From: a virus
Lineage: Duplodnaviria > Caudoviricetes
Virus record (IMG/VR): IMGVR_UViG_2868946205_000003
Reading direction: 5' to 3' (one strand)
Length of the DNA: 64,000 nucleotides
Below the pieces are notes generated by a model that was not told the DNA's origin, made no database searches, and saw only the letters and a list, made by a program, of their open reading frames with translations. Shown here one piece after another: positions 1,141 through 59,912 of the stretch (its first letter is position 1; the number at the start of each line of letters is the position of its first letter). Both the position numbers and the translations under genes were made by a program.

Positions 1141-1366
1141 CTGAAAGAATCCTTTTCAGTAGTGGGTTATCTGATTTATTTATTGTGGGTTCGGAGATCA
1201 TGCCGATAAAACGCGCATCTTGTTCCACCATCCATTTACGCCCGACTTTTTTCGGTGGTGGGGAAATCATGTTGTGCTTGGCATAGTGATATAGTGTGTT
1301 ATTCGATGGTTTTTCATCACCGAATTCTTCTATTGCCCACACTTTGAGTAAAAGCATTCGCGCCAT
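1130..1366 (-). CDS. xis: Excisionase
   Basis: 78 aa, PPPKKVGRKWMV motif, overlaps the int start. Confidence 0.9.
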   Translation of the reverse strand: MARMLLLKVWAIEEFGDEKPSNNTLYHYAKHNMISPPPKKVGRKWMVEQDARFIGMISEPTINKSDNPLLKRILSDGR

Positions 1367-1444
1367 TGGTCAGTCCTTATAAAAGGCGTGCCAAAGACAC
1401 GCCCGTATTCTGGTCGTTTGGTCTGGGTAAGGAAGGGGCTTTGG

Positions 1445-1912: not shown

Positions 1913-2719
1913 TCAGTAATCGCCGGGGTAATACACCTCGTCAGCGTCGTCCTGATCGAGCACTAACAAGCTGTCACCGTAGTAAAGCGCTGCGACCAGC
2001 TTTTCAAAGCGGGTATAGAAAGCGATAACTTTCTTACCGAGAATATCGCCGTCACATTTCCCTGAATACAGGCCGTAACATTTGATCCCGTCGTGTGTAA
2101 TTTCTTTTTTCTGTCCGTTTTCATATTCGACGGCTTCAGAAAAATAAAGGTTGTTACTAAATTCAAAGGGATGCGTTTTACGTTTGGTGCTCGACCAACT
2201 CCGTTCTTCAAACTGCTCTTTCTCTAATCCTACGCGGAAGCCACCGTACTCACTGTATTCCATCAGTACTTCAGGGCGTTGCCATCCTTCCTGAGCTGCT
2301 GCTTCCTGATGGTCTTCAATAAACGCAGCCCACAGATCGGACGCTTTAATGAATTTTGGGATCTGCTTTTCAGTGATGAACGCAGTGACCTTTTTGCGCA
2401 TCTCCGTCACTAACTGGTCAGATACTGCTTCTTGCTCCCACTGCGTTGCCAGCTCTTTTAACAGCAGAAGGTTATAGCGTGGCAGATCTACGACATCGGT
2501 AATATTGGCGGGGAGGGCAGATTGCAGCGCACGCCTAACGGCATCGGGGAATGTGCCCCAACTGAACGTATCGTTGATGGCCTTTTCATACAGTTTGGCG
2601 ACATGTTCACGAAGCATTGCCTGATACGCATCGGATTTTTCAAACGCGGCACAGTGAGCGGCGATATCGACCGCAAGGCTTGCAGCGTTCACGGTTACTT
2701 CAGTGGTGTTATTGGTCAT
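1913..2719 (-). CDS. Hypothetical phage protein (268 aa)
   Basis: Long ORF starting in the repeated AAGGACTGACCAATG motif. Confidence 0.85.
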   Translation of the reverse strand: MTNNTTEVTVNAASLAVDIAAHCAAFEKSDAYQAMLREHVAKLYEKAINDTFSWGTFPDAVRRALQSALPANITDVVDLPRYNLLLLKELATQWEQEAVSDQLVTEMRKKVTAFITEKQIPKFIKASDLWAAFIEDHQEAAAQEGWQRPEVLMEYSEYGGFRVGLEKEQFEERSWSSTKRKTHPFEFSNNLYFSEAVEYENGQKKEITHDGIKCYGLYSGKCDGDILGKKVIAFYTRFEKLVAALYYGDSLLVLDQDDADEVYYPGDY

Positions 2720-2735
2720 TGGTCAGTCCTTATTT

Positions 2736-4332: not shown

Positions 4333-5883
4333 TTAATTACGGAGGGTGAATGAGCGGACGAGATTGTTGGCGACGGCATCCAGTAATTTTTTAGCTGTTG
4401 CCTTGGTGATCTTAATTTCAACACTAGCCAAATCTACCAGCAGCAAATCCAGTAGCCATTTAAGGTCAGGCTGCGTTGCGGCAGGTTGAGAGGCTTCGCC
4501 CAGCTTTTCCGGCCAGTTGACGGTGCCTGGTGGATAGAGAGGTGTGCGAGCTACTTGTGTAAGAGGCTCGGTTACCGTTTGCTGTGCCTGCAAGCGTTCT
4601 TCTTCCAATTTTTTCTGGTTAGAAACACGCTGCTCGATCAATAAACTAATATGATCTGGGCTATTACCAACGAGCTGGTTCAGATCGGCAAACAGGTTTT
4701 TATACTCTGGCGGCACAGCATCAAATAGCTTTAGATTGTCACGGTACTGTGTGGCTATTTGATTCGCCTCGACCTTTGCCCGAGCCAATTCGTCGTTTGC
4801 TGCACCGTGCAGAGAAACTAGCGTTTTCTTGCCCTTAATCACACTGACGAAATCCGCAGGGACTGGCGGGAGTCGGACAACTGCCAGATCAGCATTCAGC
4901 ACATTGATGTGCTGCGCCAAATCCTCTTTTGCTTTGCTAATAATCTCTGCGCGGATCTCGTCTTTACGTGATTTTACCAGCCGCGTGATCTCCAGCCGTT
5001 TGCCGCGCATTTCCTCGCGTAGGGTATCGATGGTGCGGAATAGCTGATCAATCTGCACCGTTTGCGAAAGCGCCTGCTGCTTAATCAGATCCAGCTCTTT
5101 TTCTGCTTTATCACAGAATTTGGCCGTTTCTTCCGCATCAGCAAAATCCTGATCGGTGGTCAGATTGGTGTTGATGGCACGGATAAAGGCCAACGCCTTC
5201 CCTTCATAAACTGCCAGGTTGGACTGCTTCACTGTTCCTTCAATTTCAACCAGTAACGCAGGCAGACGCATAATCGCTTTACCCTGTGGTAATTCGTTAA
5301 TAACAGGAGCGGCATAGTTATTCAGATCCTGTTCAAACTGTTCCCATCCAGCGAGTAGGGCAGCAGCACGCCCGGCGACGGGAAGGTATTCCGTCCAGGC
5401 GAAATTGTCTTCCGTGCCATCGGATACCACAAAAATGGCGCGTCTGGCCTCACTGACCAGCAGTTGCTGTTCTAACTGCCAGTAATACTCAGACGGCAGG
5501 TCGTGATTGTTAACGTGTTCGGCTAATGATGCGTTCCACATCTTATGTTCAAACACGGTATCTTCCATCATGGTGATACCGTCGAATGACGCCAGTAAGC
5601 GCTCATCGTCAGAAACGGCTGTTGCGGGGAAGAGTTCGTCGCCGATAATCCCTTCGACGATGCAGCGCGCGGCGGCTTCGTACTCATGGCCTTTATCGAA
5701 CAGATTTTTCTGCACCCACTCGCTCACTTCGCGTTCGGTTCCGGTCGCTTTCATGCGCAGCAACTCATCGCGGCGCATTTTGCTGGAAGCCGCCATCATC
5801 ACGGGGGCTTCGCTGGCGGTGAAATGTTTGGCACGCAGTGCGTGCCATGCGTCTGTGCCCTGTTGGACATTAATGATTTGCAT
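4333..5883 (-). CDS. YqaJ-family phage exonuclease with long helical extension
   Basis: QGTDAWHALRAKHFTASEAP, ASFDG and FEHK nuclease motifs; start overlaps the bet end. Confidence 0.93.
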   Translation of the reverse strand: MQIINVQQGTDAWHALRAKHFTASEAPVMMAASSKMRRDELLRMKATGTEREVSEWVQKNLFDKGHEYEAAARCIVEGIIGDELFPATAVSDDERLLASFDGITMMEDTVFEHKMWNASLAEHVNNHDLPSEYYWQLEQQLLVSEARRAIFVVSDGTEDNFAWTEYLPVAGRAAALLAGWEQFEQDLNNYAAPVINELPQGKAIMRLPALLVEIEGTVKQSNLAVYEGKALAFIRAINTNLTTDQDFADAEETAKFCDKAEKELDLIKQQALSQTVQIDQLFRTIDTLREEMRGKRLEITRLVKSRKDEIRAEIISKAKEDLAQHINVLNADLAVVRLPPVPADFVSVIKGKKTLVSLHGAANDELARAKVEANQIATQYRDNLKLFDAVPPEYKNLFADLNQLVGNSPDHISLLIEQRVSNQKKLEEERLQAQQTVTEPLTQVARTPLYPPGTVNWPEKLGEASQPAATQPDLKWLLDLLLVDLASVEIKITKATAKKLLDAVANNLVRSFTLRN

Positions 5884-6712
5884 GAGGTGGCTCCAGATCG
5901 CGGATCGCGAGGATTTGTTCTTCGGAAAGGGTGTATTTGCTGCTGGCGGTAGCGATAATTTGCTGCGCGGTTTTCTTGCCACTTTCCATCAGTTGTTGCC
6001 AGGCGGTCAGATTGGCGGAGAAACGCTCTTGTGGGTAATAGGGAATTGCCAATGTTTCAGATGTTGCTGCCTTTGGCGTAATATCCCGGGCATTGTTGTA
6101 ATCCAGATCCTTGCCTTCCATTTCTTCCGCCGTGGGCTGCTGGCCGATTTCAGGCCATGCCTTACGCAACGCCTGAGCCTCTGCACATTTTGCTAATTGC
6201 GCATAAGGGCGGCGTTTCCACATGGCATTGGGGGCTTTGGTGTCTTTGCTGGCGGTGGCGTAGTTCTCCAGCCAATACTCTTTGGCGCTGAACTCCACGA
6301 TGTGACCGTCAGGCATCAGCTTATAGACGGTGTATTTGCACCAGGCAGGAAAGGTGATTTCGACTTCATTCAGCTTATGAATCGTATCAGGTCCGAACTC
6401 TGGTTCTTTTGCGCCGGCGTAACTGCCTGAGCGGTCGGCTTGAATGCGATATAGGCCAATGCCAGGCATGACCACATCACGCCACCCATACTGCCCTGAT
6501 TGAGCATCTTTAACGTTCATGGGCACGAGATGAACGGGTTTCATCAGCGGATCGAGGCTACGGGCGTGGCAGTAATTCACTGCCAGAATGATGGATTCTT
6601 CTTTGGCTCCCGGAAAAACGCTGCTTTTCAGCGCGCTCCAGGTCGGCTCATCAATGCCGAGACTTGCCATCGTCGGCGGCAACGCCGAGTTGGCAACAGT
6701 GTTGTTGGTCAT
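5870..6712 (-). CDS. bet: Phage recombination protein Bet (ssDNA annealing)
   Basis: LDPLMKPVHLVP, GIGLYRIQADRSG, QLAKCAEAQALRKAWP motifs; paired with the exonuclease. Confidence 0.93.
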   Translation of the reverse strand: MTNNTVANSALPPTMASLGIDEPTWSALKSSVFPGAKEESIILAVNYCHARSLDPLMKPVHLVPMNVKDAQSGQYGWRDVVMPGIGLYRIQADRSGSYAGAKEPEFGPDTIHKLNEVEITFPAWCKYTVYKLMPDGHIVEFSAKEYWLENYATASKDTKAPNAMWKRRPYAQLAKCAEAQALRKAWPEIGQQPTAEEMEGKDLDYNNARDITPKAATSETLAIPYYPQERFSANLTAWQQLMESGKKTAQQIIATASSKYTLSEEQILAIRDLEPPHANH

Positions 6713-6724
6713 GGTCAGTCCTTA

Positions 6725-6904: not shown

Positions 6905-6928
6905 TCAACTGCTAATGACTATGGTCAT
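6905..6928 (-). other. 7-codon mini-ORF MTIVISS starting in the conserved start motif
   Basis: ATAAGGACTGACCA-ATG ACC ATA GTC ATT AGC AGT TGA. Confidence 0.5.
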
Positions 6929-7009
6929 TGGTCAGTCCTTATGGTCAACGGTTTGGTCGCTGTTGACCGGGATAGCCCCGGTGCAAACTGGGGCTTTTCT
7001 CTTTTTGGG

Positions 7010-7421: not shown

Positions 7422-7682
7422 TTACTCTTCGGTCTTTTCCTCGTTGATGCGCTGATAAGGGAAGCGATCGGTGTGAGGTTTGATGTTGCGATAGAAGTGG
7501 CTACCGACTGAATCAGCACCGGAGAACGCAGCGAAGTCGTCGGTTTTCACGTTGCTGTAGTGATACAGGCTGCCCGGCGCGTCGCCACGACCGTTGAAAC
7601 GAATGGCCAGCGTGTTGGTTACTGGGTCGTGACCGATGCTGTGGATCTGAGATGATTTAACGGGGGTCATGCTGATGGTCAT
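7422..7682 (-). CDS. KTSC domain protein
   Basis: PVKSSQIHSIGHD...YHYSNV...ADSVGSHFYRNIK; start at the motif variant AAGGACTCACCAATG. Confidence 0.9.
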   Translation of the reverse strand: MTISMTPVKSSQIHSIGHDPVTNTLAIRFNGRGDAPGSLYHYSNVKTDDFAAFSGADSVGSHFYRNIKPHTDRFPYQRINEEKTEE

Positions 7683-7705
7683 TGGTGAGTCCTTATCGAA
7701 AGAAA

Positions 7706-7795
7706 TAAAAAAGCCACCCGAAGGTGGCCGTGGTTGCCCTGGTGAGGCGTAAAACTCGCTTTTCAGGCGAAAAAAAAGCCCACCGAAGTGAGCTT
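7706..7795 (-). terminator. Two tandem intrinsic terminators downstream of N (tL-like)
   Basis: GC hairpins with TTCG loops followed by T runs on the minus strand. Confidence 0.8.
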
Positions 7796-7806
7796 GAGTT
7801 AGGTAT

Positions 7807-8079
7807 TTAGTAAACGCCGCGTGGCATTTTGCTGTTGCCGCGTATTTTCTGACGTCCGACTGCTGAGTAGCCAACGTAACGATCTGGATCGCTACCGTCG
7901 TTGGTTTTAACTGAACACAATTTTTTAGGTTGGGCAGGGTGGTCTGTAATTGAATGGCAACTCACAGCAGCCTGAACTGCTCTTGTTACGCGGTCACTTT
8001 TTCGCTGAGTGATACGCTGAAGGTTCTCTACGCACTGGCGCGCATTTGCAGTGCGGCGTTTTTTACGTGGCTTGGTCAT
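7807..8079 (-). CDS. N-like antitermination protein
   Basis: Arg/Lys-rich N-terminus; ENLQRI and GRQKIRG resemble lambda N (ESNLQRI, GRQKIKG); early in the pL operon. Confidence 0.75.
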   Translation of the reverse strand: MTKPRKKRRTANARQCVENLQRITQRKSDRVTRAVQAAVSCHSITDHPAQPKKLCSVKTNDGSDPDRYVGYSAVGRQKIRGNSKMPRGVY

Positions 8080-8206
8080 TGGTCAGTCCTTATGGTTTGC
8101 TTTGGTGGTTTAGTGGCGGGCGCTGAACTCCGCATTAGGGGTTTGCGATGAGAGAATCCACCCAAATCTTCTCCTATCATCGCAATGAGTGAATCAGCCT
8201 TCACAT

Positions 8207-8559: not shown

Positions 8560-8634
8560 TTTTTAAAGAGCGTATCCGCTTGGGATGAAATAAATATAAC
8601 CAAAGCTATTTTGAGTGTAAATAGCTTTGGTTGT
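8560..8634 (-). promoter_or_regulatory. pL promoter with OL operators and boxA
   Basis: TTTACA-17-TATATT; 14-bp operators at 8596-8609 and 8621-8634 match the OR sites; boxA-like CGCTCTTTAAAAA at 8560-8572. Confidence 0.85.
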
Positions 8635-8750
8635 TTTTGCGTGGTTTATTGACGTTTGCTATTGAACAAAAAGGATATTTATTTTTTACCTGTCCGATGT
8701 ATAAACTTCACTTCGATGAACTTGTGGCTTTATGAACTTAAGGAAGAGTT

Positions 8751-10814: not shown

Positions 10815-10885
10815 AAGTTATAGCTGTAGCTATTTTTAGTCAAATAGCTATGGTTATTTACTTTCTGAATAGCTTTGGTTATTCT
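10815..10885. promoter_or_regulatory. OR region: three operators, pRM and pR
   Basis: ATAGCTnnrGyTAT at 10820-10833, 10844-10857, 10869-10882; pRM TTGACT-17-TAACTT (minus; +1 at or next to the cI ATG, so probably leaderless); pR TTTACT-17-TATTCT. Confidence 0.88.
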
Positions 10886-11162: not shown

Positions 11163-11178
11163 CACCAAGGACTGACCA

Positions 11179-11535
11179 ATGACCACAATACGTCAACCTG
11201 CCGCACCAACGGCAGGGGCCGCGATCGCTTCTGGCGTTCGCAAGGAGTTGCTTTCCCGCAAGAAAGTGGGCAAGGCTGGCTTGCCGTTCCACGTTGTGCG
11301 GGAAGACCAGATCAAAACTCGCTGGACTGAAAGCGAAGCCGCCACCATCAAAAGTGTGGCTGGCGCTATGTCATCAAATCCCGCCGTTGAAACCAACACC
11401 GCCGCTATTCGTGGCTTTCTGGCTATGTTCGCTGAATCTCCAGACATGTTGGCGCATGTTCATGCCGAACTGAAGGCCGCAGGTCTGTCGATTCCCGACT
11501 GGTTACCGCCGTTGCCGGAAGGGGCTACGCGATGA
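11179..11535 (+). CDS. Hypothetical protein in the cII position
   Basis: Starts in the conserved AAGGACTGACCAATG motif; not recognisably CII. Confidence 0.75.
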   Translation: MTTIRQPAAPTAGAAIASGVRKELLSRKKVGKAGLPFHVVREDQIKTRWTESEAATIKSVAGAMSSNPAVETNTAAIRGFLAMFAESPDMLAHVHAELKAAGLSIPDWLPPLPEGATR

Positions 11536-12797: not shown

Positions 12798-13602
12798 CGA
12801 ACGCACTGATTTAGCGGTGAAGCGCGAGTTTGCTGAGCTGCTGAAAGCGACACTGGCCGTGTACGGCAAGGATTCATCGAAAGCCGTGATCCGCCTGTAC
12901 TGGAATGCTGTCGGTTCATTCGACATCGGACTGATTCGGCAGGCGCTCAGCCAGTGGATCACCGATCCCGAGCAGGGGCGCTACGCACCAAAACCCGCCG
13001 ATATTATTCGCAACATCCAGCGTCTCACCGGCCGCCCGTCGTGGGTTAGCGCTAATGAGGCGTGGGCAATCGCGCTGCCTGCACAGGATGAGGCTAACAC
13101 GCTGATTTGGACAGCGGAGATCGCTCAGGCATGGCGTGTAGCTGAACCTATTTTCACTGATGGCGATCGCGTTGGGGCACGAATGGCGTTTATTGCTGCC
13201 TACGAACGCCTTGTTGCGACCGCTCAGTCTTCTGGCGTCTTGCCGCAGTGGACGGTTTCGGAAGGCTGGGACAAAGGGGCTGTGAAAGGTGCGGTAGAAC
13301 AGGCTGTTAACGCAGGGTTATTACCTGCACCGGATGCTACGCGATATTTATCCCCGCCTGCCAGCTTGCCCCCGCCAAAGGTGGACAGAGGAAAGCGGGA
13401 TGGGATGTTGGCAAAAATTCAGGCATTCGCCGGGATATTGCTGGATCAGAAAGAACAACGGGAGACACAGGAACGGCACGAAAGGGAGGAGCGAAGAGCA
13501 CTAGCAAACAAGGAGTTAGATAAGCGCTACCAAGATGAATTACGCCGTGCTGCTGACCACAGCACAACTGATGAAAACCAAGCAATAAGGGCTGACCAAT
13601 GA
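12784..13602 (+). CDS. Replication protein / helicase-loader-like
   Basis: Follows the initiator; [11 protein letters not shown] and [12 protein letters not shown] motifs. Confidence 0.75.
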
Positions 13603-14741
13603 GTATGACGTTTAAAAATGCACTGATTTATCGCCTGAATAGCGATGTGATGTTTGATGAGCTGGAAAAGAAACTGGCTCCGTTTGCGTTCACCCCATGC
13701 GGTAGCCAGGACAGAGCAAAAACGGGCTGGATATCGCCTATTTGTCCGCTGCTCGATGTGCTTTCTCACCAGGCTAACGGGCAGATCATGCTTACGTTGC
13801 AGCGCGAAGAAAAGATCCTGCCTGCACCCGTGATTGCGCGTGAGCTGGCCGCCAAAATCGACAGCATGGAAACCGTGCAGCGGCGCCGTCTGAAGAAAAC
13901 CGAGAAAGACGCGCTGAAGGATGAAGTTATCCAAACGCTCCTGCCGCGTGCGTTCAGTAAATACCATACCACCAAGATTTGGATTAACGCAGGGGCTGGG
14001 CTGATCATCGTTGATGCCGCCAGCGGCAAAAAAGCGGAAGATGCTCTGGCGCTGCTGCGTAAAACGCTTGGATCGCTGCCCGTTGTGCCGCTGATGCTGG
14101 AAACGCCCATTGAACTGACGCTGACCGAGTGGGTTCGCAACGGTAAAGCGCCGGCGGGTTTTGTTTTGCAGGAAGAGGCCGAGTTAAAAGCCGTGTTGGA
14201 AGAAGGCGGCATTCTGCGCAGCAAGCATCAGGATCTGACCAGTGATGAAATCACCAATCATATCGACGCAGGCAAACTGGTCACCAAGCTGGCGCTGGAA
14301 TGGCGCGAACGCATCAGTTTTGTGCTGGCCGATGATGGCAGCCTGAAAAAGCTGAAATTCTCCGACTCTTTACTCGAGCAGAATGACGATATCGATCGTG
14401 CAGATGAGGTCGCGCGTTTTGACGCCGATTTCGTGTTGCTGACAGGGGAATTGTCGGCGCTGATCCGTGAACTGGTGGCAGCGCTGAGTGGTGAAAATAA
14501 GCGTGGGGATGTGGTGGAAGCCACCGTTACTGGTAGCGAAGATTTGGATAAAGATCCGCTATACGACGACGCCGTGAAATTTCTCACTGGCAAATCGGAA
14601 GGGTCAATTTCTCAGCTACAGCGCCATTTCCGCATCGGCTACAACCGCGCAGCCAGGCTGATAGAAGCACTTGAGAATGACGGTGCCATTTCCACACCTG
14701 CGTATAACGGCATTCGGAAAGTGATCGGGGTGGTGGCATGA
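13599..14741 (+). CDS. rdgC: RdgC fused to a C-terminal FtsK-gamma domain
   Basis: [32 protein letters not shown]; C-terminal DPLYDDAV...[21 protein letters not shown]. Confidence 0.93.
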
Positions 14742-18259: not shown

Positions 18260-18348
18260 TTTAGCCCACGTTGTAAATTGTAATATTGTTGCTCTCTGTA
18301 AACTAAATCATACAATCAGCCTGATGATATCATTTCAGGACTGACCAA

Positions 18349-19158
18349 ATGACCATAGCCATAGAACAACTTATCAAGATGCACGATCCGCATTGTATGA
18401 GTATTGAATCACTGAACATAGGGCGCGGGCAAGGCATTCTTTCCAAAGATCAGATCGTTGGCGCGTTTGCTACAGCTCAACATCGCCATTCCGTTGGCTT
18501 TGATTTGTTAATGACAAAATACCGCCACGATAGCCAGGCAGAACAGCGTATTCGAGATGCTATTTCTAACTGGGTAAAAACTCGAACTCACCTCATGCAC
18601 TCGGACTCTGCCTGTCAGTTGGCGCTAAGTATGGTGCTTGATCGCAATCTGCCCGCGCAAATCGATCATATCGCTGGGCTACTACGCAGATACGGCGCTA
18701 AAGCGGCGCAGTCGCGCAAGAATACCAATGCATTGCGTGCAGAGATAAAGCAGCTTGAAAGGCAGCGCTGTCGCGAAAAGGTGAGCCACGCCGATTACAT
18801 TAGCGCGGGGATCGAAATCACCGAACTTAACGAGCGAATAAGTCATGAACGTAAAGCGCTGCGGGAATGGTCGGATCTCCAGGCGGCACAATTAAATGTC
18901 TGCCCACGTTGTAGCGGAACAGGAAAAACGCAGCGCCCTGTCATTACCGTCTGTAACGAGTGTGGTGGTAATGGGCATATTGTGGCGACGTTCGAACATC
19001 TGCGTAAATCATTGGCTATCATAGGGGCTGTGATATCTGCTGGTGAATGGCCGAAATATTTGGATCTGGTTAAGAGTTGCATGCGCTGGTTGTATGTTGA
19101 AGAGTCTCAGGCGGTTAGCACCCTCAGCACTAAAATTTATGATGAAATGGAGGCATGA
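18349..19158 (+). CDS. Q-like late antitermination protein
   Basis: CPRCSGTG...CNECGGNG zinc motifs; upstream of the late promoter and lysis genes. Confidence 0.82.
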   Translation: MTIAIEQLIKMHDPHCMSIESLNIGRGQGILSKDQIVGAFATAQHRHSVGFDLLMTKYRHDSQAEQRIRDAISNWVKTRTHLMHSDSACQLALSMVLDRNLPAQIDHIAGLLRRYGAKAAQSRKNTNALRAEIKQLERQRCREKVSHADYISAGIEITELNERISHERKALREWSDLQAAQLNVCPRCSGTGKTQRPVITVCNECGGNGHIVATFEHLRKSLAIIGAVISAGEWPKYLDLVKSCMRWLYVEESQAVSTLSTKIYDEMEA

Positions 19159-19159
19159 C

Positions 19160-19555
19160 ATGGGGATTTATGGTGAAACAGCCGTTGCTGTAGCGAGTAA
19201 TTTTATTTATGGGCAATCGCCGCAAGAGTGTTGGGAACATGAAATAACTCATTTCACTAGCAGTAAAGAAAGCAGGAAAAAAGGTTGTCCCAAATCTGCA
19301 TTTCTTGGGTTATGTCAGGATGGTTATATAAAAGATATCCCGAAAGGGAATTATTTACCGCCAGACAGTCCAAATAAAGAATACGCCGTAGCGGCTGCTG
19401 AAAGGTTATTAAGTGAACCAACCAGAAAATATTCTAAATCTGATTTATGGAAAAAAGCGACGGAACACTTTGATGAAGCCGCAAAAAATCAAAATGGTCA
19501 AATGGATGTTGTTCTGGCATTAAAAGACGCCGGATTACTACAGAAACCCGATTGA
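19160..19555 (+). CDS. Hypothetical protein (DUF6979-like)
   Basis: KKGCPKSAFLGLC and NGQMDVVLAL motifs (family recalled, unverified). Confidence 0.75.
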   Translation: MGIYGETAVAVASNFIYGQSPQECWEHEITHFTSSKESRKKGCPKSAFLGLCQDGYIKDIPKGNYLPPDSPNKEYAVAAAERLLSEPTRKYSKSDLWKKATEHFDEAAKNQNGQMDVVLALKDAGLLQKPD

Positions 19556-19626
19556 CCTGCCCGCCCATACGCGCTAAATTCGCGAAAGATACCGGAGTAT
19601 GCCTTAAAAAGCTGCTCCGGTTTTTT
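19552..19626 (+). promoter_or_regulatory. Late promoter (pR'-like) plus tR'-like terminator, copy 1
   Basis: TTGACC-17-TAAATT, then ACCGGAG...CTCCGGT hairpin and T run. Confidence 0.85.
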
Positions 19627-19672
19627 ATTGGTCAGTCCTCAAGCCTGCATGGTTCGCCCAGCAGGCTTTTTT
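19587..19672 (+). ncRNA. Candidate late-leader sRNA carrying an antisense seed ATTGGTCAGTCCT
   Basis: Seed 19627-19639 lies between two hairpin/U-tract elements and is the reverse complement of the repeated start motif; ends inferred. Confidence 0.5.
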
Positions 19673-19695
19673 ATTTCCTGCATATAGAGCGTGTT

Positions 19696-20289
19696 ATGTC
19701 CAAAATTCTCACCCTTTTAGATTACCGGGTCGCCGCGAGTGGTTTGGGGGTTCCGGTTGCCACGATTAAAGCTGTGACCGAAGTAGAAAGTAGCGGCAGC
19801 GGATTTCTATCGGATGGTCGGGTAAAAGTGCAATATGAACCGCATGTTATGTATCAGCAACTGACGAAACATTTCGGCGGTGCTCGGGCAAATACCGAAT
19901 TAGCGAAACATCCCGATCTGGTAGCGCGTAAACCGGGCAGTTACCAATCCCTAGATAAAGAAGATAAAGATATGGATCGGGCTGCGACTGTTATTGATCG
20001 CGGCTGCGCGTTGCAATCTGCATCGTGGGGAGCATTTCAGATCATGGGTTACCACTGGAAAACTTGCGGCTACCCGACATTACAAGCTTTCATTAACGCC
20101 CAATACATGGCAGCCGGGCAACTCGATTCGTTCGTGCGCTTTATTAAAGCGGATAACAAACTGCTATCGGCGCTGAAAAGTCGTGATTGGGCAACCTTCG
20201 CCCGAATTTACAACGGTCCAGCGTATGCCAAAAATCGCTATGACACCAAACTTGAGAGTGCATATGCCAAGTACCAGGGGGCTGTGTAA
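19696..20289 (+). CDS. Endolysin, N-acetylmuramidase (DUF3380-type)
   Basis: AVTEVESSGSGF, SASWGAFQIMGYH, WATFARIYNGP. Confidence 0.92.
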   Translation: MSKILTLLDYRVAASGLGVPVATIKAVTEVESSGSGFLSDGRVKVQYEPHVMYQQLTKHFGGARANTELAKHPDLVARKPGSYQSLDKEDKDMDRAATVIDRGCALQSASWGAFQIMGYHWKTCGYPTLQAFINAQYMAAGQLDSFVRFIKADNKLLSALKSRDWATFARIYNGPAYAKNRYDTKLESAYAKYQGAV

Positions 20290-20609
20290 TGGAATGGCTA
20301 TCCCGACTGTGGGAGCAATTTCAATGGGCGGTAGCCGGGCTCATTGGTGCACTGATATCTGTACCATTCCAGAGCGACTTAAGAACGGCACGCGGGATCG
20401 CGATCTTCGTTTTCACGGGTAGCGCCTGCGCCCACTACCTGACAGGCATTGTTGGCGATTATTTCAATATCAATCCTTCGTCGGCTGGCGGCATTGGCTT
20501 TCTTCTGGGGGCGTTCGGCGGTTCGCTGATTGCTGCCGTTATCAAGGCCATTGAAGCTGCCGATCTGTGGGGGCTTATCCGATCCCGATTTGGTGGAGGT
20601 GCCCAATGA
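20289..20609 (+). CDS. Holin
   Basis: Three TM segments, GIGFLLGAFGGSL; within the lysis cassette. Confidence 0.8.
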   Translation: MEWLSRLWEQFQWAVAGLIGALISVPFQSDLRTARGIAIFVFTGSACAHYLTGIVGDYFNINPSSAGGIGFLLGAFGGSLIAAVIKAIEAADLWGLIRSRFGGGAQ

Positions 20610-28510: not shown

Positions 28511-28628
28511 TTGCTTTGAGCATGAATACGCGCTAAATTCGCGAAAGATACCGGAGTATGCCTTAAAAAGCTGCTCCGGTTTTTTTATACCACAAAATCA
28601 GTATCGGCCACCTTCGGGTGGTTTTTTT
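28511..28628 (+). promoter_or_regulatory. Second late promoter plus terminators (copy 2)
   Basis: TTGCTT-17-TAAATT; 28526-28585 identical to 19567-19626; second hairpin CCACC-TTCG-GGTGG-T7. Confidence 0.85.
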
Positions 28629-28735
28629 GTTTGTGCAGATAAGCACTTTAGCAATAGAGCGCTTATTCGCATGGGCAGCGATACGCCTTTTCCCTTTCGG
28701 ATCTATCCGACAAATAGACATGCAGGAGTAATGAC

Positions 28736-59441: not shown

Positions 59442-59873
59442 CTATTTATTTTTTTTATTACTGACCGCGCCATTATTAATAATCTGATTACCGGCAAATT
59501 GACCACTAATATCGCCATTGAATATCTGACTTGAACTTGTCGGTTGAGACGACGTACCTGCTGTTAATGCAGCCAAAACCGCAGCTTTCACTGCTAATGG
59601 TGCATTTCTGTAATGCTGTATCAGTTCTGACTCATCTTTAGTGATGCGATTCTCAACAGATGGCGGGTTACTGCCAGTAAGAATGAATTGCACGTTTGCA
59701 CCAGCCATTGCAAACAACATCAGAACCTCACCGCCAGGTACGGCTATACCACGCTCGTACTTGCTCCACATTTCACGAGAAACCCCGCATATATCTGCCA
59801 CCTCGCCTTGTTTCAGCGATAAGCGGGAACGTTCAGATTTGATACGGGGTGCAAAAAGAGAATCAAAGTTCAC
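59442..59873 (-). CDS. Prophage repressor (XRE HTH, no peptidase domain)
   Basis: RIKSERSRLSLKQGEVADICGVSREMWSKYERG; divergent from the early genes. Confidence 0.9.
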   Translation of the reverse strand: MNFDSLFAPRIKSERSRLSLKQGEVADICGVSREMWSKYERGIAVPGGEVLMLFAMAGANVQFILTGSNPPSVENRITKDESELIQHYRNAPLAVKAAVLAALTAGTSSQPTSSSQIFNGDISGQFAGNQIINNGAVSNKKNK

Positions 59874-59912
59874 AAAAACCTCATTGACAATGAGAACTAA
59901 AGTTCACATAAT
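59857..59912 (+). promoter_or_regulatory. Early promoter with two operators
   Basis: TTGACA-17-CATAAT; wGAGAAyyAAAGTTCACA at 59857-59874 and 59891-59908. Confidence 0.82.

What the first reader, a model, noticed from the sequence alone, without database searches (positions are those of the whole stretch)
19587..19672. Late-promoter leader carries the exact antisense of the start motif: candidate multi-target shut-off sRNA
Seen: the only full copy not at a start codon is reversed, ATTGGTCAGTCCT (19627-19639). It lies unpaired between the tR'-like hairpin/T run (19591-19626) and a second hairpin/T run (19641-19672), downstream of the late promoter; on the other strand it has no ATG. The transcript would pair 13/13 with the SD and AUG of five ORFs, 11-12 contiguous nt with bet and Q, with a G-U wobble at rdgC and one mismatch at KTSC. 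Inference: read-through of tR' (Q-dependent or leaky) yields a ~86-nt RNA or late-mRNA leader that silences N, Q, xis, bet, rdgC and others together, as an early-to-late switch with feedback on Q or as a lysogeny stabiliser. Known precedent: sRNAs from pR' leaders (StxS). I know of none with a seed site repeated across the phage's own starts. The duplicate promoter at 28.5 kb lacks the seed.
Basis: partly seen in the sequence, partly recalled or inferred. Interest (0 to 1): 0.92.

Follow-up and report, generated by a model that had tools for sequence, protein, structure and literature searches.

The report
Late-leader RNA mirroring early-gene start tag
A lambda-like prophage puts one identical 13-base tag on the ribosome-binding sites of its early genes and keeps the tag's exact mirror image, unpaired, in the leader RNA of its late operon, so late transcription probably switches those early genes off by RNA pairing, though no transcript or repression has been shown.

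Summary
ATTGGTCAGTCCT (19627-19639) is the only reversed copy of a 13-nt tag (AGGACTGACCAAT) that otherwise forms the SD-to-AUG stretch of 5 exact and 4 near-exact early-gene starts. It lies unpaired between two hairpin/T-run terminators. These follow a sigma70-type promoter downstream of the Q gene and upstream of the lysis genes.

Of 51 Q-family loci in viral contigs, 45 keep a seed at this place (16 full, 3 with one change, 26 as a split duplicate). A third, unrelated leader architecture carries a 8-9-nt partial seed. Thirty-one further versions of the same late promoter, in front of structural genes, lack it, so promoter or terminator function does not need it. Tag and seed co-occur: three distant Q relatives have neither, and host genomes have no exact tag outside prophages.

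Against: the tag never varies, so no covariation could be tested. Three tag-bearing loci have lost or degraded the seed. One tagged record has none. No read-level RNA evidence was obtainable.

The closest analogues are StxS (pR' leader sRNA) and the start-associated sequences of Cluster K mycobacteriophages, whose function is unknown.

This scan noted the same system earlier on other DNA (e1-5965903, e1-5965918, e1-6235031). I found no paper describing it.

The parts
18349..19158 (+). Q-family antiterminator gene. Its start carries the tag with one extra A (AGGACTGACCAAATG, 18337-18351).
   Evidence: phrog_127 'anti-termination protein Q-like', E 2.2e-13. Relatives are named TIGR02642 / antitermination protein and carry PF27659. 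Tag variant.
19161..19555 (+). DUF6979 gene lying between Q and the late promoter. It is absent in relatives where the promoter follows Q directly.
   Evidence: PF22399, E 7.9e-37, on ORF 19043-19555. ATG at 19161 with GGAGG upstream. L008, L010 and L012 have the seed about 90 nt after Q.
19552..19580 (+). Late promoter candidate: TTGACC, 17 nt, TAAATT.
   Evidence: Listed by the consensus scan, 9 of 12 matches. CGCTAAATT is kept in all 50 hairpin-1-anchored copies, while the first 11 spacer bases vary.
19585..19590 (+). AAAGAT, a -10-like hexamer at the predicted transcript start. It is a candidate sigma-dependent pause element for Q loading (inferred).
   Evidence: Present as AAAGAT in 49 and AAAAAT in 1 of the 50 rows anchored on hairpin 1. 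The role is inferred from the Q mechanism described in the abstracts of PMC9388147 and PMC6606751 (listing).
19591..19626 (+). Hairpin 1 plus T6, the first intrinsic terminator (tR'-like). It is part of the 60-nt repeat 19567-19626.
   Evidence: Fold. In alignment A1 its pairs are kept in 25 of 25 leaders, with compensatory double changes at two pairs. Repeat.
19627..19639 (+). Seed ATTGGTCAGTCCT, the exact complement of the early-gene start tag.
   Evidence: Unpaired. Kept in relatives.
19641..19672 (+). Hairpin 2 plus T6, the second intrinsic terminator.
   Evidence: Fold. The same hairpin type also ends unrelated phage genes that have no seed: 24 distinct sequences from 23 records.
19696..20609 (+). 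First late genes: muramidase (19696-20289) and holin (20289-20609).
   Evidence: PF11860, E 1.2e-56. phrog_2359 holin, E 4e-28.
28511..28629 (+). Second late promoter copy: TTGCTT, 17 nt, TAAATT, an identical hairpin 1, another spacer, another hairpin 2. It has no seed and serves as an internal control.
1365..1377 (-). Tag at the start of xis (1130-1366).
   Evidence: phrog_629 excisionase. Duplex -24.0 kcal/mol.
2718..2730 (-). Tag at the start of the 268-aa ORF (1913-2719).
   Evidence: Duplex -24.8.
6710..6722 (-). Tag variant, one A fewer, at the RecT/Bet-like annealing gene (5870-6712).
   Evidence: phrog_2449. Duplex -20.6.
6927..6939 (-). Tag at a 7-codon mini-ORF (6905-6928).
   Evidence: Duplex -24.8.
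7681..7693 (-). Tag variant (G>C) at the 86-aa ORF (7422-7682).
   Evidence: Duplex -18.4.
8078..8090 (-). Tag at the 90-aa ORF with an arginine-rich N-terminus (7807-8079), the first gene after the left operators. This is the N position.
   Evidence: Duplex -24.8. No PHROG match.
11168..11180 (+). Tag at the 118-aa ORF (11179-11535), next after the cro-like gene.
   Evidence: Duplex -24.8.
13588..13600 (+). Tag variant (A>G, wobble-compatible) at the rdgC-FtsK-gamma gene (13599-14741).
   Evidence: Duplex -24.7.

Best explanation
The 13 bases are a working anti-ribosome-site seed carried by the RNA of the Q-dependent late operon.

Proposed mechanism:
1. A sigma70 promoter just downstream of Q fires (shown only as consensus).
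2. Without Q, most polymerases stop at hairpin 1, giving an RNA of about 40 nt that lacks the seed. Those that leak through stop at hairpin 2, giving an RNA of about 86 nt.
3. With Q, polymerase reads through both terminators. The seed then sits, single-stranded between two stable hairpins, at the 5' end of the abundant late mRNA.
4. In either form the seed can make a 13-15-bp duplex (about -24 kcal/mol) that covers the Shine-Dalgarno sequence and AUG of the tagged early mRNAs: xis, the RecT-like gene, the N-position gene, the cII-position gene, rdgC, Q itself and others.
5. This blocks 30S binding and probably invites RNase cleavage. Late transcription would thus turn down a set of delayed-early proteins and feed back on Q.

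Shown: the sequence, the fold, the placement, conservation, and co-occurrence with the tag. Inferred: the transcript, its ends, read-through, pairing in vivo, and repression.
For: 1. Not chance. There are 6 exact 13-mers in 93 kb and 0 for the reversed-pattern control. Every copy other than the leader copy lies at a start codon and points with its gene.

2. Accessible. The seed is unpaired between two hairpins (unpaired probability 0.79).

3. Specific. The 20-nt spacer was scanned against 31,986 windows of both strands (mean -7.5, sd 2.7 kcal/mol). Apart from its own complement, the six best hits are tagged starts at -24.0 to -24.8. Q scores -21.4 and the RecT-like gene -20.6.

4. Conserved at this place.
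- 45 of 51 Q-family loci carry a seed: 16 full, 3 with one change, 26 as a split duplicate that keeps both the anti-AUG and the anti-SD half.
- It persists with three different hairpin-1 versions.
- Meanwhile the first 11 bases of the -35/-10 spacer have drifted to 35.5% pairwise identity.
- The two internal seed substitutions seen (L295/G018 and L024) are both C>T, which keep pairing as G-U.

5. A third leader architecture with unrelated hairpins (G012, G015, G011, L308) still has GTCAGTCC(T) in the spacer before the holin gene, twice in G011.

6. Not needed for promoter or terminators. 31 of 68 distinct versions of the same promoter module lack any seed; these precede structural genes. The window's own copy at 28.5 kb is one of them.

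7. Co-occurrence.
- 33 of 36 seed-bearing records have an exact 14-mer tag, and 15 of 15 of those at least 90% complete do.
- 22 of 23 records that share only hairpin 2 have no tag.
- Q relatives at 33-35% identity have neither tag nor seed.

8. The tag is phage-specific. There are 0 exact copies in two 5-Mb Pectobacterium genomes, and all 7 exact copies in a Brenneria genome lie on one prophage contig.

9. Precedent. A pR' leader transcript matures into the regulatory sRNA StxS (PMC7547250, abstract).
Against: - No transcript evidence. The only RNA runs found hold relatives at 90-95% identity as assembled contigs. These break at the 60-nt repeat and cannot show starts, ends or strand.
- The tag is invariant across all relatives examined, so seed-tag covariation could not be tested. 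Single-base seed variants are not matched by tag changes.
- The whole leader is highly conserved (81% mean column identity). The seed is as conserved as the hairpins, not more. My 'seed invariant' figure comes from a set chosen by having the seed core.
- Hairpin 1 looks like a strong terminator. Without Q, the seed-bearing 86-nt RNA may therefore be rare.
- Three of 48 tag-bearing Q loci lack an intact seed. L382 has none in a defective prophage. L015 and L376 keep only 7-8-nt remnants.
- Record G010 (48.6 kb, rated complete) has tags but no seed, no Q homologue and no such promoter. The tag can therefore exist without the seed.
Confidence: 0.55

Rival explanations
1. The reversed copy is a passenger. 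The tag is mainly a recombination joint or a strong ribosome site that spreads between phage genes. One inverted copy became fixed inside a leader that is conserved for other reasons (Q loading, termination), and it does nothing as RNA.
For: - The tag sits on genes of unrelated families and even on a 7-codon mini-ORF, as a joint left by recombination would.
- The phage encodes RecE/RecT-like recombination genes.
- The whole leader is conserved at 81% column identity, so conservation of the seed is not special.
- Tags exist without a seed in G010 and L382.
- That short shared sequences at gene borders could mediate lambdoid mosaicism is recalled knowledge, not checked here.
Against: - The seed lies outside the 60-nt block shared with the seedless promoter copies, so Q loading and termination do not need it. 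Yet it is kept with three hairpin-1 versions, as a split duplicate that preserves both halves, and as a partial copy in an unrelated leader architecture.
- Neighbouring neutral positions have diverged to 35.5% identity.
- An inverted repeat of a recombination joint would promote inversions, which should be selected against.
Confidence: 0.2
2. Tag and reversed copy are DNA sites for a phage or host DNA-binding protein, in the manner of the 13-bp stoperators of mycobacteriophage L5. The leader copy is one more site.
For: - The motif is 13 bp and asymmetric, scattered in intergenic positions of the early operons and absent from host DNA.
- The SAS paper itself contrasts such sites with stoperators (PMC3203893, passage).
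- A double-stranded site reads the same in either orientation.
Against: - The tag keeps a fixed register with the ATG in every copy and contains the SD sequence, which points to the RNA and translation level.
- The prophage repressor's operators (AATAGCT(A/T)TGGTTATT at 10820-10883 and 8592-8638) are unrelated to the tag.
- In split-seed leaders the site is broken into two overlapping halves. These still pair as RNA but no longer form one 13-bp DNA site.
Confidence: 0.1
3. The seed acts in cis only. In long read-through transcripts from the early right promoter it pairs with the Q ribosome site about 1.3 kb upstream. Alternatively it serves the stability or processing of the late mRNA 5' end, with no trans regulon.
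For: - Q starts with the tag or a near-tag in most relatives.
- The seed always lies downstream of Q on the same strand.
- Only the lysis-proximal late promoter carries it.
Against: - This does not explain why 5-9 other early genes, half of them on the opposite strand and so on other transcripts, keep the identical tag.
- The first late gene downstream differs between relatives, so a gene-specific cis role is unlikely.
Confidence: 0.1

Closest known systems
StxS, the sRNA made from the terminated pR' leader of Stx phages (PMC7547250, abstract read)
   Same: Both would be a short RNA from the constitutive late promoter, ending at the terminator just downstream, that acts by base pairing. Both are by-products of Q antitermination control.
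   Different: StxS acts on rpoS and stx1 rather than on a repeated tag on the phage's own early genes. No sequence relation was found: Rfam gave no match. Here the seed lies after the first terminator, so it is made mainly on read-through. Hfq binding and processing are unknown here.
Start-associated sequences (SAS) of Cluster K mycobacteriophages (PMC3203893, passages read; role still called unknown in PMC11373665 and PMC12699233, passages read)
   Same: Both are 13-bp asymmetric motifs containing the SD sequence at a fixed short distance from the ATG of many non-structural genes of unrelated families. Both are absent from the host genome. [quoted passage not shown] The paper states this for four K1 phages. 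I confirmed it for Anaya: 16 forward copies and 1 reversed, in a 385-nt intergenic stretch and in the loop of a predicted hairpin.
   Different: The sequence, the host phylum and the phage type are unrelated, so this is an analogue and not a member. No one has proposed or tested an antisense RNA for SAS in the passages I read. ESAS inverted repeats have no counterpart here.
T4 RegB and RegA (review PMC3014915, passages read)
   Same: Both shut off many early genes together through a shared feature of their translation-initiation regions. RegB cuts GGAG Shine-Dalgarno sequences. RegA binds at the AUG of about 30 mRNAs. RegB also targets its own message, as this seed would target Q.
   Different: Those regulators are proteins. 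Here the proposed regulator is an RNA and the shared feature is a long exact tag.
Phage antisense RNAs OOP, aQ, sar, and c4 of P1/P7 (review PMC12197685, sections 2 and 4 read; c4 recalled)
   Same: All are phage RNAs that block translation of, or destabilise, phage regulatory mRNAs. aQ also targets Q.
   Different: OOP, aQ and sar are cis-antisense to a single gene. This seed is encoded away from all its targets and has up to nine of them. There was no Rfam C4 match.

Membership tests
Q-dependent late promoter with leader terminator (lambda pR'-qut-tR' type) | Lies downstream of a Q antiterminator gene and upstream of the lysis and late genes | tested here: met
   Q-like gene at 18349-19158. 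Muramidase and holin at 19696-20609. A 395-nt DUF6979 gene intervenes here, but not in L008, L010 or L012.
Q-dependent late promoter with leader terminator (lambda pR'-qut-tR' type) | Sigma70 -35/-10 promoter | tested here: met
   TTGACC-17-TAAATT, 9 of 12 matches. This is a consensus match only; promoter-like sites are not enriched in the region (16 found, 18.2 expected).
Q-dependent late promoter with leader terminator (lambda pR'-qut-tR' type) | Q binding element and sigma-dependent promoter-proximal pause element (abstracts of PMC9388147 and PMC6606751, listing) | tested here: inconclusive
   A -10-like AAAGAT at 19585-19590 is kept in 49 of 50 hairpin-1-anchored copies. Neither pausing nor Q binding can be tested here.
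Q-dependent late promoter with leader terminator (lambda pR'-qut-tR' type) | Intrinsic terminator(s) between the promoter and the first late gene | tested here: met
   Two hairpins, each followed by T6. Hairpin 1 is supported by compensatory changes. The terminator scan missed both because their loops exceed its limit.
Q-dependent late promoter with leader terminator (lambda pR'-qut-tR' type) | Q-dependent read-through | not testable with these tools
   Needs transcription assays or read-level RNA data.
Trans-acting base-pairing sRNA of the pR'-leader kind (StxS-like) | A discrete short transcript is made and is stable | not testable with these tools
   Only assembled contigs of relatives were available.
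Trans-acting base-pairing sRNA of the pR'-leader kind (StxS-like) | Accessible seed complementary to target translation-initiation regions | tested here: met
   13 of 13 complementarity to five starts. Unpaired probability 0.79. Duplexes -24 to -24.8 kcal/mol against a background of -7.5 +/- 2.7.
Trans-acting base-pairing sRNA of the pR'-leader kind (StxS-like) | Match to a curated RNA family | tested here: not met
   No Rfam family at gathering score in the window. Only chance-level hits (E 4.6-5.5) in 19480-19760.
Trans-acting base-pairing sRNA of the pR'-leader kind (StxS-like) | Seed and targets change together in relatives | tested here: inconclusive
   The tag is invariant in every relative checked, so there is nothing to covary with. 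Internal seed changes are G-U compatible.
Start-associated sequences (Cluster K SAS) | About 13-bp asymmetric motif at many non-structural gene starts, absent from the host, with one reversed copy | tested here: met
   set against passages of PMC3203893 and Anaya.
Start-associated sequences (Cluster K SAS) | The SAS consensus sequence itself and a Cluster K phage background | tested here: not met
   The motif is different and the prophage is lambdoid, in Pectobacteriaceae-type hosts. This is an analogue, not a member.
Cis-antisense phage RNAs (OOP, aQ, sar) | Transcribed from the strand opposite its single target gene | tested here: not met
   The seed is 1.3 to 18 kb away from its candidate targets, and nothing is encoded opposite it.

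The most novel reading that the evidence does not exclude
A tag/anti-tag translational regulon. These temperate phages mark a set of early genes with one exact ribosome-site tag so that a single stretch of late-leader RNA can silence them all.

The same tag is shared, letter for letter, by dozens of relatives with different Q, hairpin and downstream modules. The constitutive leader RNA of a resident prophage could therefore also blunt the early genes of superinfecting relatives, giving an RNA-based cross-immunity.

The same logic, many forward tags plus one reversed copy presented in an RNA hairpin, appears in Cluster K mycobacteriophages. There it would give the first testable function for SAS, a motif unexplained since 2011.
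Probability: 0.25. Interest if true: 0.88.

Novelty: new variant of a known kind. Interest (0 to 1): 0.74.

Why it matters
If it is real, this is an RNA counterpart of T4 RegA/RegB. One short stretch of late mRNA would turn off a whole class of early proteins, including the late activator Q, through a purpose-built shared ribosome-site tag.

It would explain three things: why unrelated early genes in a large group of Pectobacterium, Brenneria and related prophages keep an identical 13-14-base start sequence, what the space between the two late-leader terminators is for, and, by analogy, what mycobacteriophage start-associated sequences might be for.

It is directly testable with reporter fusions and compensatory mutations. 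It would also give a compact, portable multi-gene off-switch for engineering.

Tried and rejected
RNA evidence. The look-up of sequencing runs gave 14 runs, none holding more than 0.14 of the sampled words. Read laying on four RNA runs laid only Logan contigs of relatives at 90-95% likeness. Contigs end at 19567 in all four runs, but that is the edge of the 60-nt repeat, where assemblies break. It says nothing about a transcript start. One contig (X7, record 9) runs unbroken from 19567 through the seed and hairpin 2 into the lysis genes, but DNA carry-over cannot be excluded. No conclusion was drawn.

Covariation. I looked for relatives with a changed tag and a matching changed seed and found none. 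The tag is invariant, and seed variants are single bases.

Known phages. blastn of the 146-nt module against 50,697 phage records gave no match. A 4.1-kb query found only endolysin-level similarity.

Rfam. There was nothing at gathering score and only chance-level hits around the leader. No tRNA or tmRNA was found.

Genome-contig scan. My 17-nt hairpin-1 pattern was too short for 596 Gb. Of those listed, only four loci (one in each of two Pectobacterium genomes and two in Brenneria corticis) were relevant. The single scan was thereby spent.

First duplex scan. It included hairpin arms and gave misleadingly strong energies for GC-rich random sites. It was replaced by the spacer-only scan.

Repressor-site idea. 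The operators of the CI-like repressor are unrelated to the tag.

Decayed minus-strand gene start. In every relative the reversed tag is followed by the A run of terminator 1, never by G.

Literature. Searches, and a search for the four 13-mer strings themselves (0 papers), found no description of this system. The 2025 review of phage sRNAs (PMC12197685, sections 2 and 4 read) lists none like it. Supplementary files were not opened and may hold sRNA lists that I could not see.

I used the search for related loci with an alignment instead.
Full report
THE OBSERVATION

The 13-mer AGGACTGACCAAT occurs 10 times in the window at up to 2 mismatches, against 0.90 expected; no shuffle of 100 reaches 10. 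It occurs 6 times exactly in the whole 93-kb provirus record, with no hit for the reversed control. All copies lie between 1365 and 19639, in the early half of a lambda-like prophage.

Nine of the ten end in, or one base away from, an ATG and point the same way as the gene they start:
- xis, a 268-aa ORF, a RecT-like gene, a 7-codon mini-ORF, an 86-aa ORF and a 90-aa ORF on the minus strand.
- A 118-aa ORF, an rdgC-FtsK-gamma gene and the Q-like gene on the plus strand.

The tenth copy, at 19627-19639, is reversed and is followed on its own strand by A, so it cannot start a gene.

THE SETTING

- The Q-like gene (18349-19158; phrog_127; relatives named TIGR02642 or antitermination protein) is followed by a DUF6979 gene (19161-19555).
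- Next comes TTGACC-17-TAAATT (19552-19580).
- Hairpin 1 follows at 19591-19621 with six T, then the seed, then hairpin 2 at 19641-19668 with six T.
- A muramidase and a holin come after.
- The 94-nt stretch folds at -33.4 kcal/mol (z = -4.25), and the seed is unpaired apart from two weak pairs. Its mean unpaired probability is 0.79.
- The block 19567-19626 (the -10, the start region and hairpin 1) is repeated exactly at 28526-28585. There it is followed by a different spacer and a different second hairpin, and has no seed.

This layout matches the general description of Q-dependent late promoters: a Q binding element and a sigma-dependent pause at the promoter, with terminators downstream (abstracts listed). 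The resemblance to lambda pR' itself is from my recall and was not compared by sequence.

RELATIVES

I collected relatives by four routes that do not depend on the seed.

1. Q protein. Among 51 Q-family loci from viral contigs, 45 carry a seed on the Q strand after a T run. Of these, 16 have the full 13-mer, 3 have one change, and 26 have a split duplicate that keeps both the anti-AUG half and the anti-SD half.

2. Hairpin 1. Of 50 copies of hairpin 1, 11 have the full seed, 25 have the split seed and 14 have none. The 14 are second late promoters like the one at 28.5 kb.

3. Hairpin 2. Of 58 distinct sequences, 31 have a seed and the late promoter. Three have a partial seed in a different leader. 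Twenty-four, from 23 unrelated records, have neither, and 22 of those 23 records contain no tag.

4. Promoter plus start region. Of 68 distinct modules, 17 have the full seed, 3 a near seed, 17 a split seed and 31 none.

Records fetched because they are rich in tags showed further leader versions. Some have other hairpin-1 arms with the exact seed (G016, G017). Others have seeds with one change: a G-U-compatible change in G018 and a terminal change in G014. A third architecture with unrelated hairpins still has GTCAGTCC(T) in the spacer ahead of the holin gene, twice in G011.

WHAT THIS SHOWS

- The seed is not needed for the promoter, for Q loading or for termination, because the many seedless copies share those parts.
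- It has nevertheless been kept at the lysis-proximal late leader while the first 11 bases of the -35/-10 spacer drifted to 35.5% identity. The set in that calculation was chosen by having the seed core, so only the spacer figure is informative.
- Hairpin 1 is a real RNA or DNA structure: its pairs are kept in 25 of 25 leaders, with compensatory double changes at two pairs.
- Tag and seed travel together. 33 of 36 seed-bearing records have an exact 14-mer tag, and 15 of 15 near-complete ones do. Q relatives at 33-35% identity have neither.
- The tag is a phage feature, not a host one. [quoted passage not shown]
- The spacer's best predicted partners in the window are the tagged starts, at -24 to -24.8 kcal/mol against a background of -7.5 +/- 2.7.

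WHAT IT DOES NOT SHOW

- There is no evidence for a transcript. The RNA runs found hold only assembled contigs of relatives, and these break at the 60-nt repeat.
- Because the tag never varies, the decisive in-silico test, covariation of seed and tag, cannot be made in this family.
- The leader as a whole is very conserved (81% column identity), so the seed does not stand out from it.
- Some relatives keep tags with a lost or decayed seed. L382 is a defective prophage with a frameshifted Q and no lysis genes. L015 and L376 have a diverged leader with only 7-8-nt remnants. G010 has tags but no Q, holin or late promoter of this type. The tag therefore has, or had, a life of its own, for example as a strong ribosome site or a recombination joint, and the seed would be exploiting it.

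MECHANISM

I judge a trans-acting anti-ribosome-site function the most likely, at about 0.55.

Most seed-bearing RNA should be made when Q reads through hairpin 1, so the seed would act mainly as part of the 5' end of the late mRNA. The 86-nt RNA ending at hairpin 2 would be a minor product of leaky read-through in lysogens.

The expected effect is repression of the tagged delayed-early genes and negative feedback on Q. Whether a lysogen makes enough of it to stabilise lysogeny or to interfere with superinfecting relatives is open.

The rivals are:
- A passenger copy of a recombination joint (0.2).
- A DNA site for a protein (0.1). The repressor's own operators are unrelated to the tag.
- A purely cis role (0.1).

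COMPARISON WITH WHAT IS KNOWN

- StxS shows that a terminated pR' leader can become a regulatory sRNA (PMC7547250, abstract). Its targets are rpoS and stx1, not a repeated tag on the phage's own genes.
- T4 RegB and RegA do the same job with proteins (PMC3014915, passages).
- OOP, aQ and sar are cis-antisense to single genes (PMC12197685, section 2).
- The closest formal analogue is the start-associated sequence of Cluster K mycobacteriophages. It is a 13-bp asymmetric motif at 11-19 non-structural gene starts, absent from the host, of unknown function. [quoted passage not shown] Its role was still called unknown in 2024 and 2025 (PMC11373665 and PMC12699233, passages).
- In Anaya I found 16 forward copies and one reversed copy. 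The reversed copy lies in a 385-nt intergenic stretch on the transcribed strand, in the loop of a predicted hairpin. This is one phage and one fold, a lead only.

No paper in the searched library holds the 13-mer strings, and none of the searches found this system described. Supplements were closed.

EARLIER NOTES OF THIS SCAN

The same tag/seed system was noted and followed up before on other DNA: e1-5965903 and e1-5965918 on a Serratia prophage, and e1-6235031. The tag itself was noted on this genome (e1-6227427). Similar tag/anti-tag layouts were reported in unrelated phages.

These are unchecked AI notes and I do not count them as support. I saw them after my own analysis, except that e1-5965903 pointed me to the review PMC12197685.

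VERDICT

It is a new variant of a known kind: a base-pairing RNA from a late-promoter leader. Its distinctive feature is a dedicated, repeated target tag on the phage's own early genes. It is of high interest but rests on comparative evidence only.

Noticed in passing
window 28511-28629; also L017, L023, L028, L033, L039, L042, L049, L053, L057, L058, L060 and others: These phages carry two or three copies of the same late promoter and hairpin-1 module: 31 distinct seedless versions lie in front of structural genes. A Q-type phage with several Q-dependent late promoters is unusual as far as I recall; lambda has one.
   Followed up: partly
window 6905-6939 (minus strand): A complete tag starts a 7-codon mini-ORF (MTIVISS). 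This is a start tag left without a gene, which fits the idea that the tag travels with recombination joints.
   Followed up: partly
window 7700-7800 (minus strand) and 28606-28623: The N-position gene (7807-8079, arginine-rich N-terminus) is followed by two tandem hairpin/T-run terminators. The second (GGCCACCTTCGGGTGGC) has the same sequence as the second hairpin of the 28.5-kb late promoter copy.
   Followed up: no
L307-L339: The hairpin-2 terminator, with its loop ATGGTTCGCCC and a GC stem, recurs nearly unchanged at gene ends in 23 otherwise unrelated viral records, many of them GC-rich. It is a widely shared terminator hairpin of unknown origin.
   Followed up: partly
L345 34871-34883 (Mycobacterium phage Anaya JF704106, record 59870-59882): The single reversed SAS of Anaya lies in the 385-nt gp96-gp97 intergenic stretch, after a terminator-like hairpin. 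In the predicted fold (z = -3.99) it lies in the loop of a GC stem. This layout would suit an antisense RNA against SAS.
   Followed up: partly
window about 14221-14250 (plus strand): An internal site in rdgC (AGGAUCUGACCAGUGA) is the next-best predicted partner of the seed spacer (-21.6 kcal/mol) after the tagged starts.
   Followed up: no
window 13599-14741: RdgC is fused to a C-terminal FtsK-gamma (KOPS-binding type) domain: PF04381 at residues 3-299 and PF09397 at residues 317-376.
   Followed up: no
window 8592-8638 and 10820-10883: Operator-like repeats AATAGCT(A/T)TGGTTATT flank the repressor/cro region on both sides, marking the probable left and right early promoters.
   Followed up: partly
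L015 (diverged leader) and L376: In the Q lineage at 52-54% identity, the late leader has moved away from Q and its split seed has decayed to 7-8-nt remnants. Only about three tags (at up to 1 mismatch) remain within 10 kb of Q. This may be joint decay of tag and seed.
   Followed up: partly
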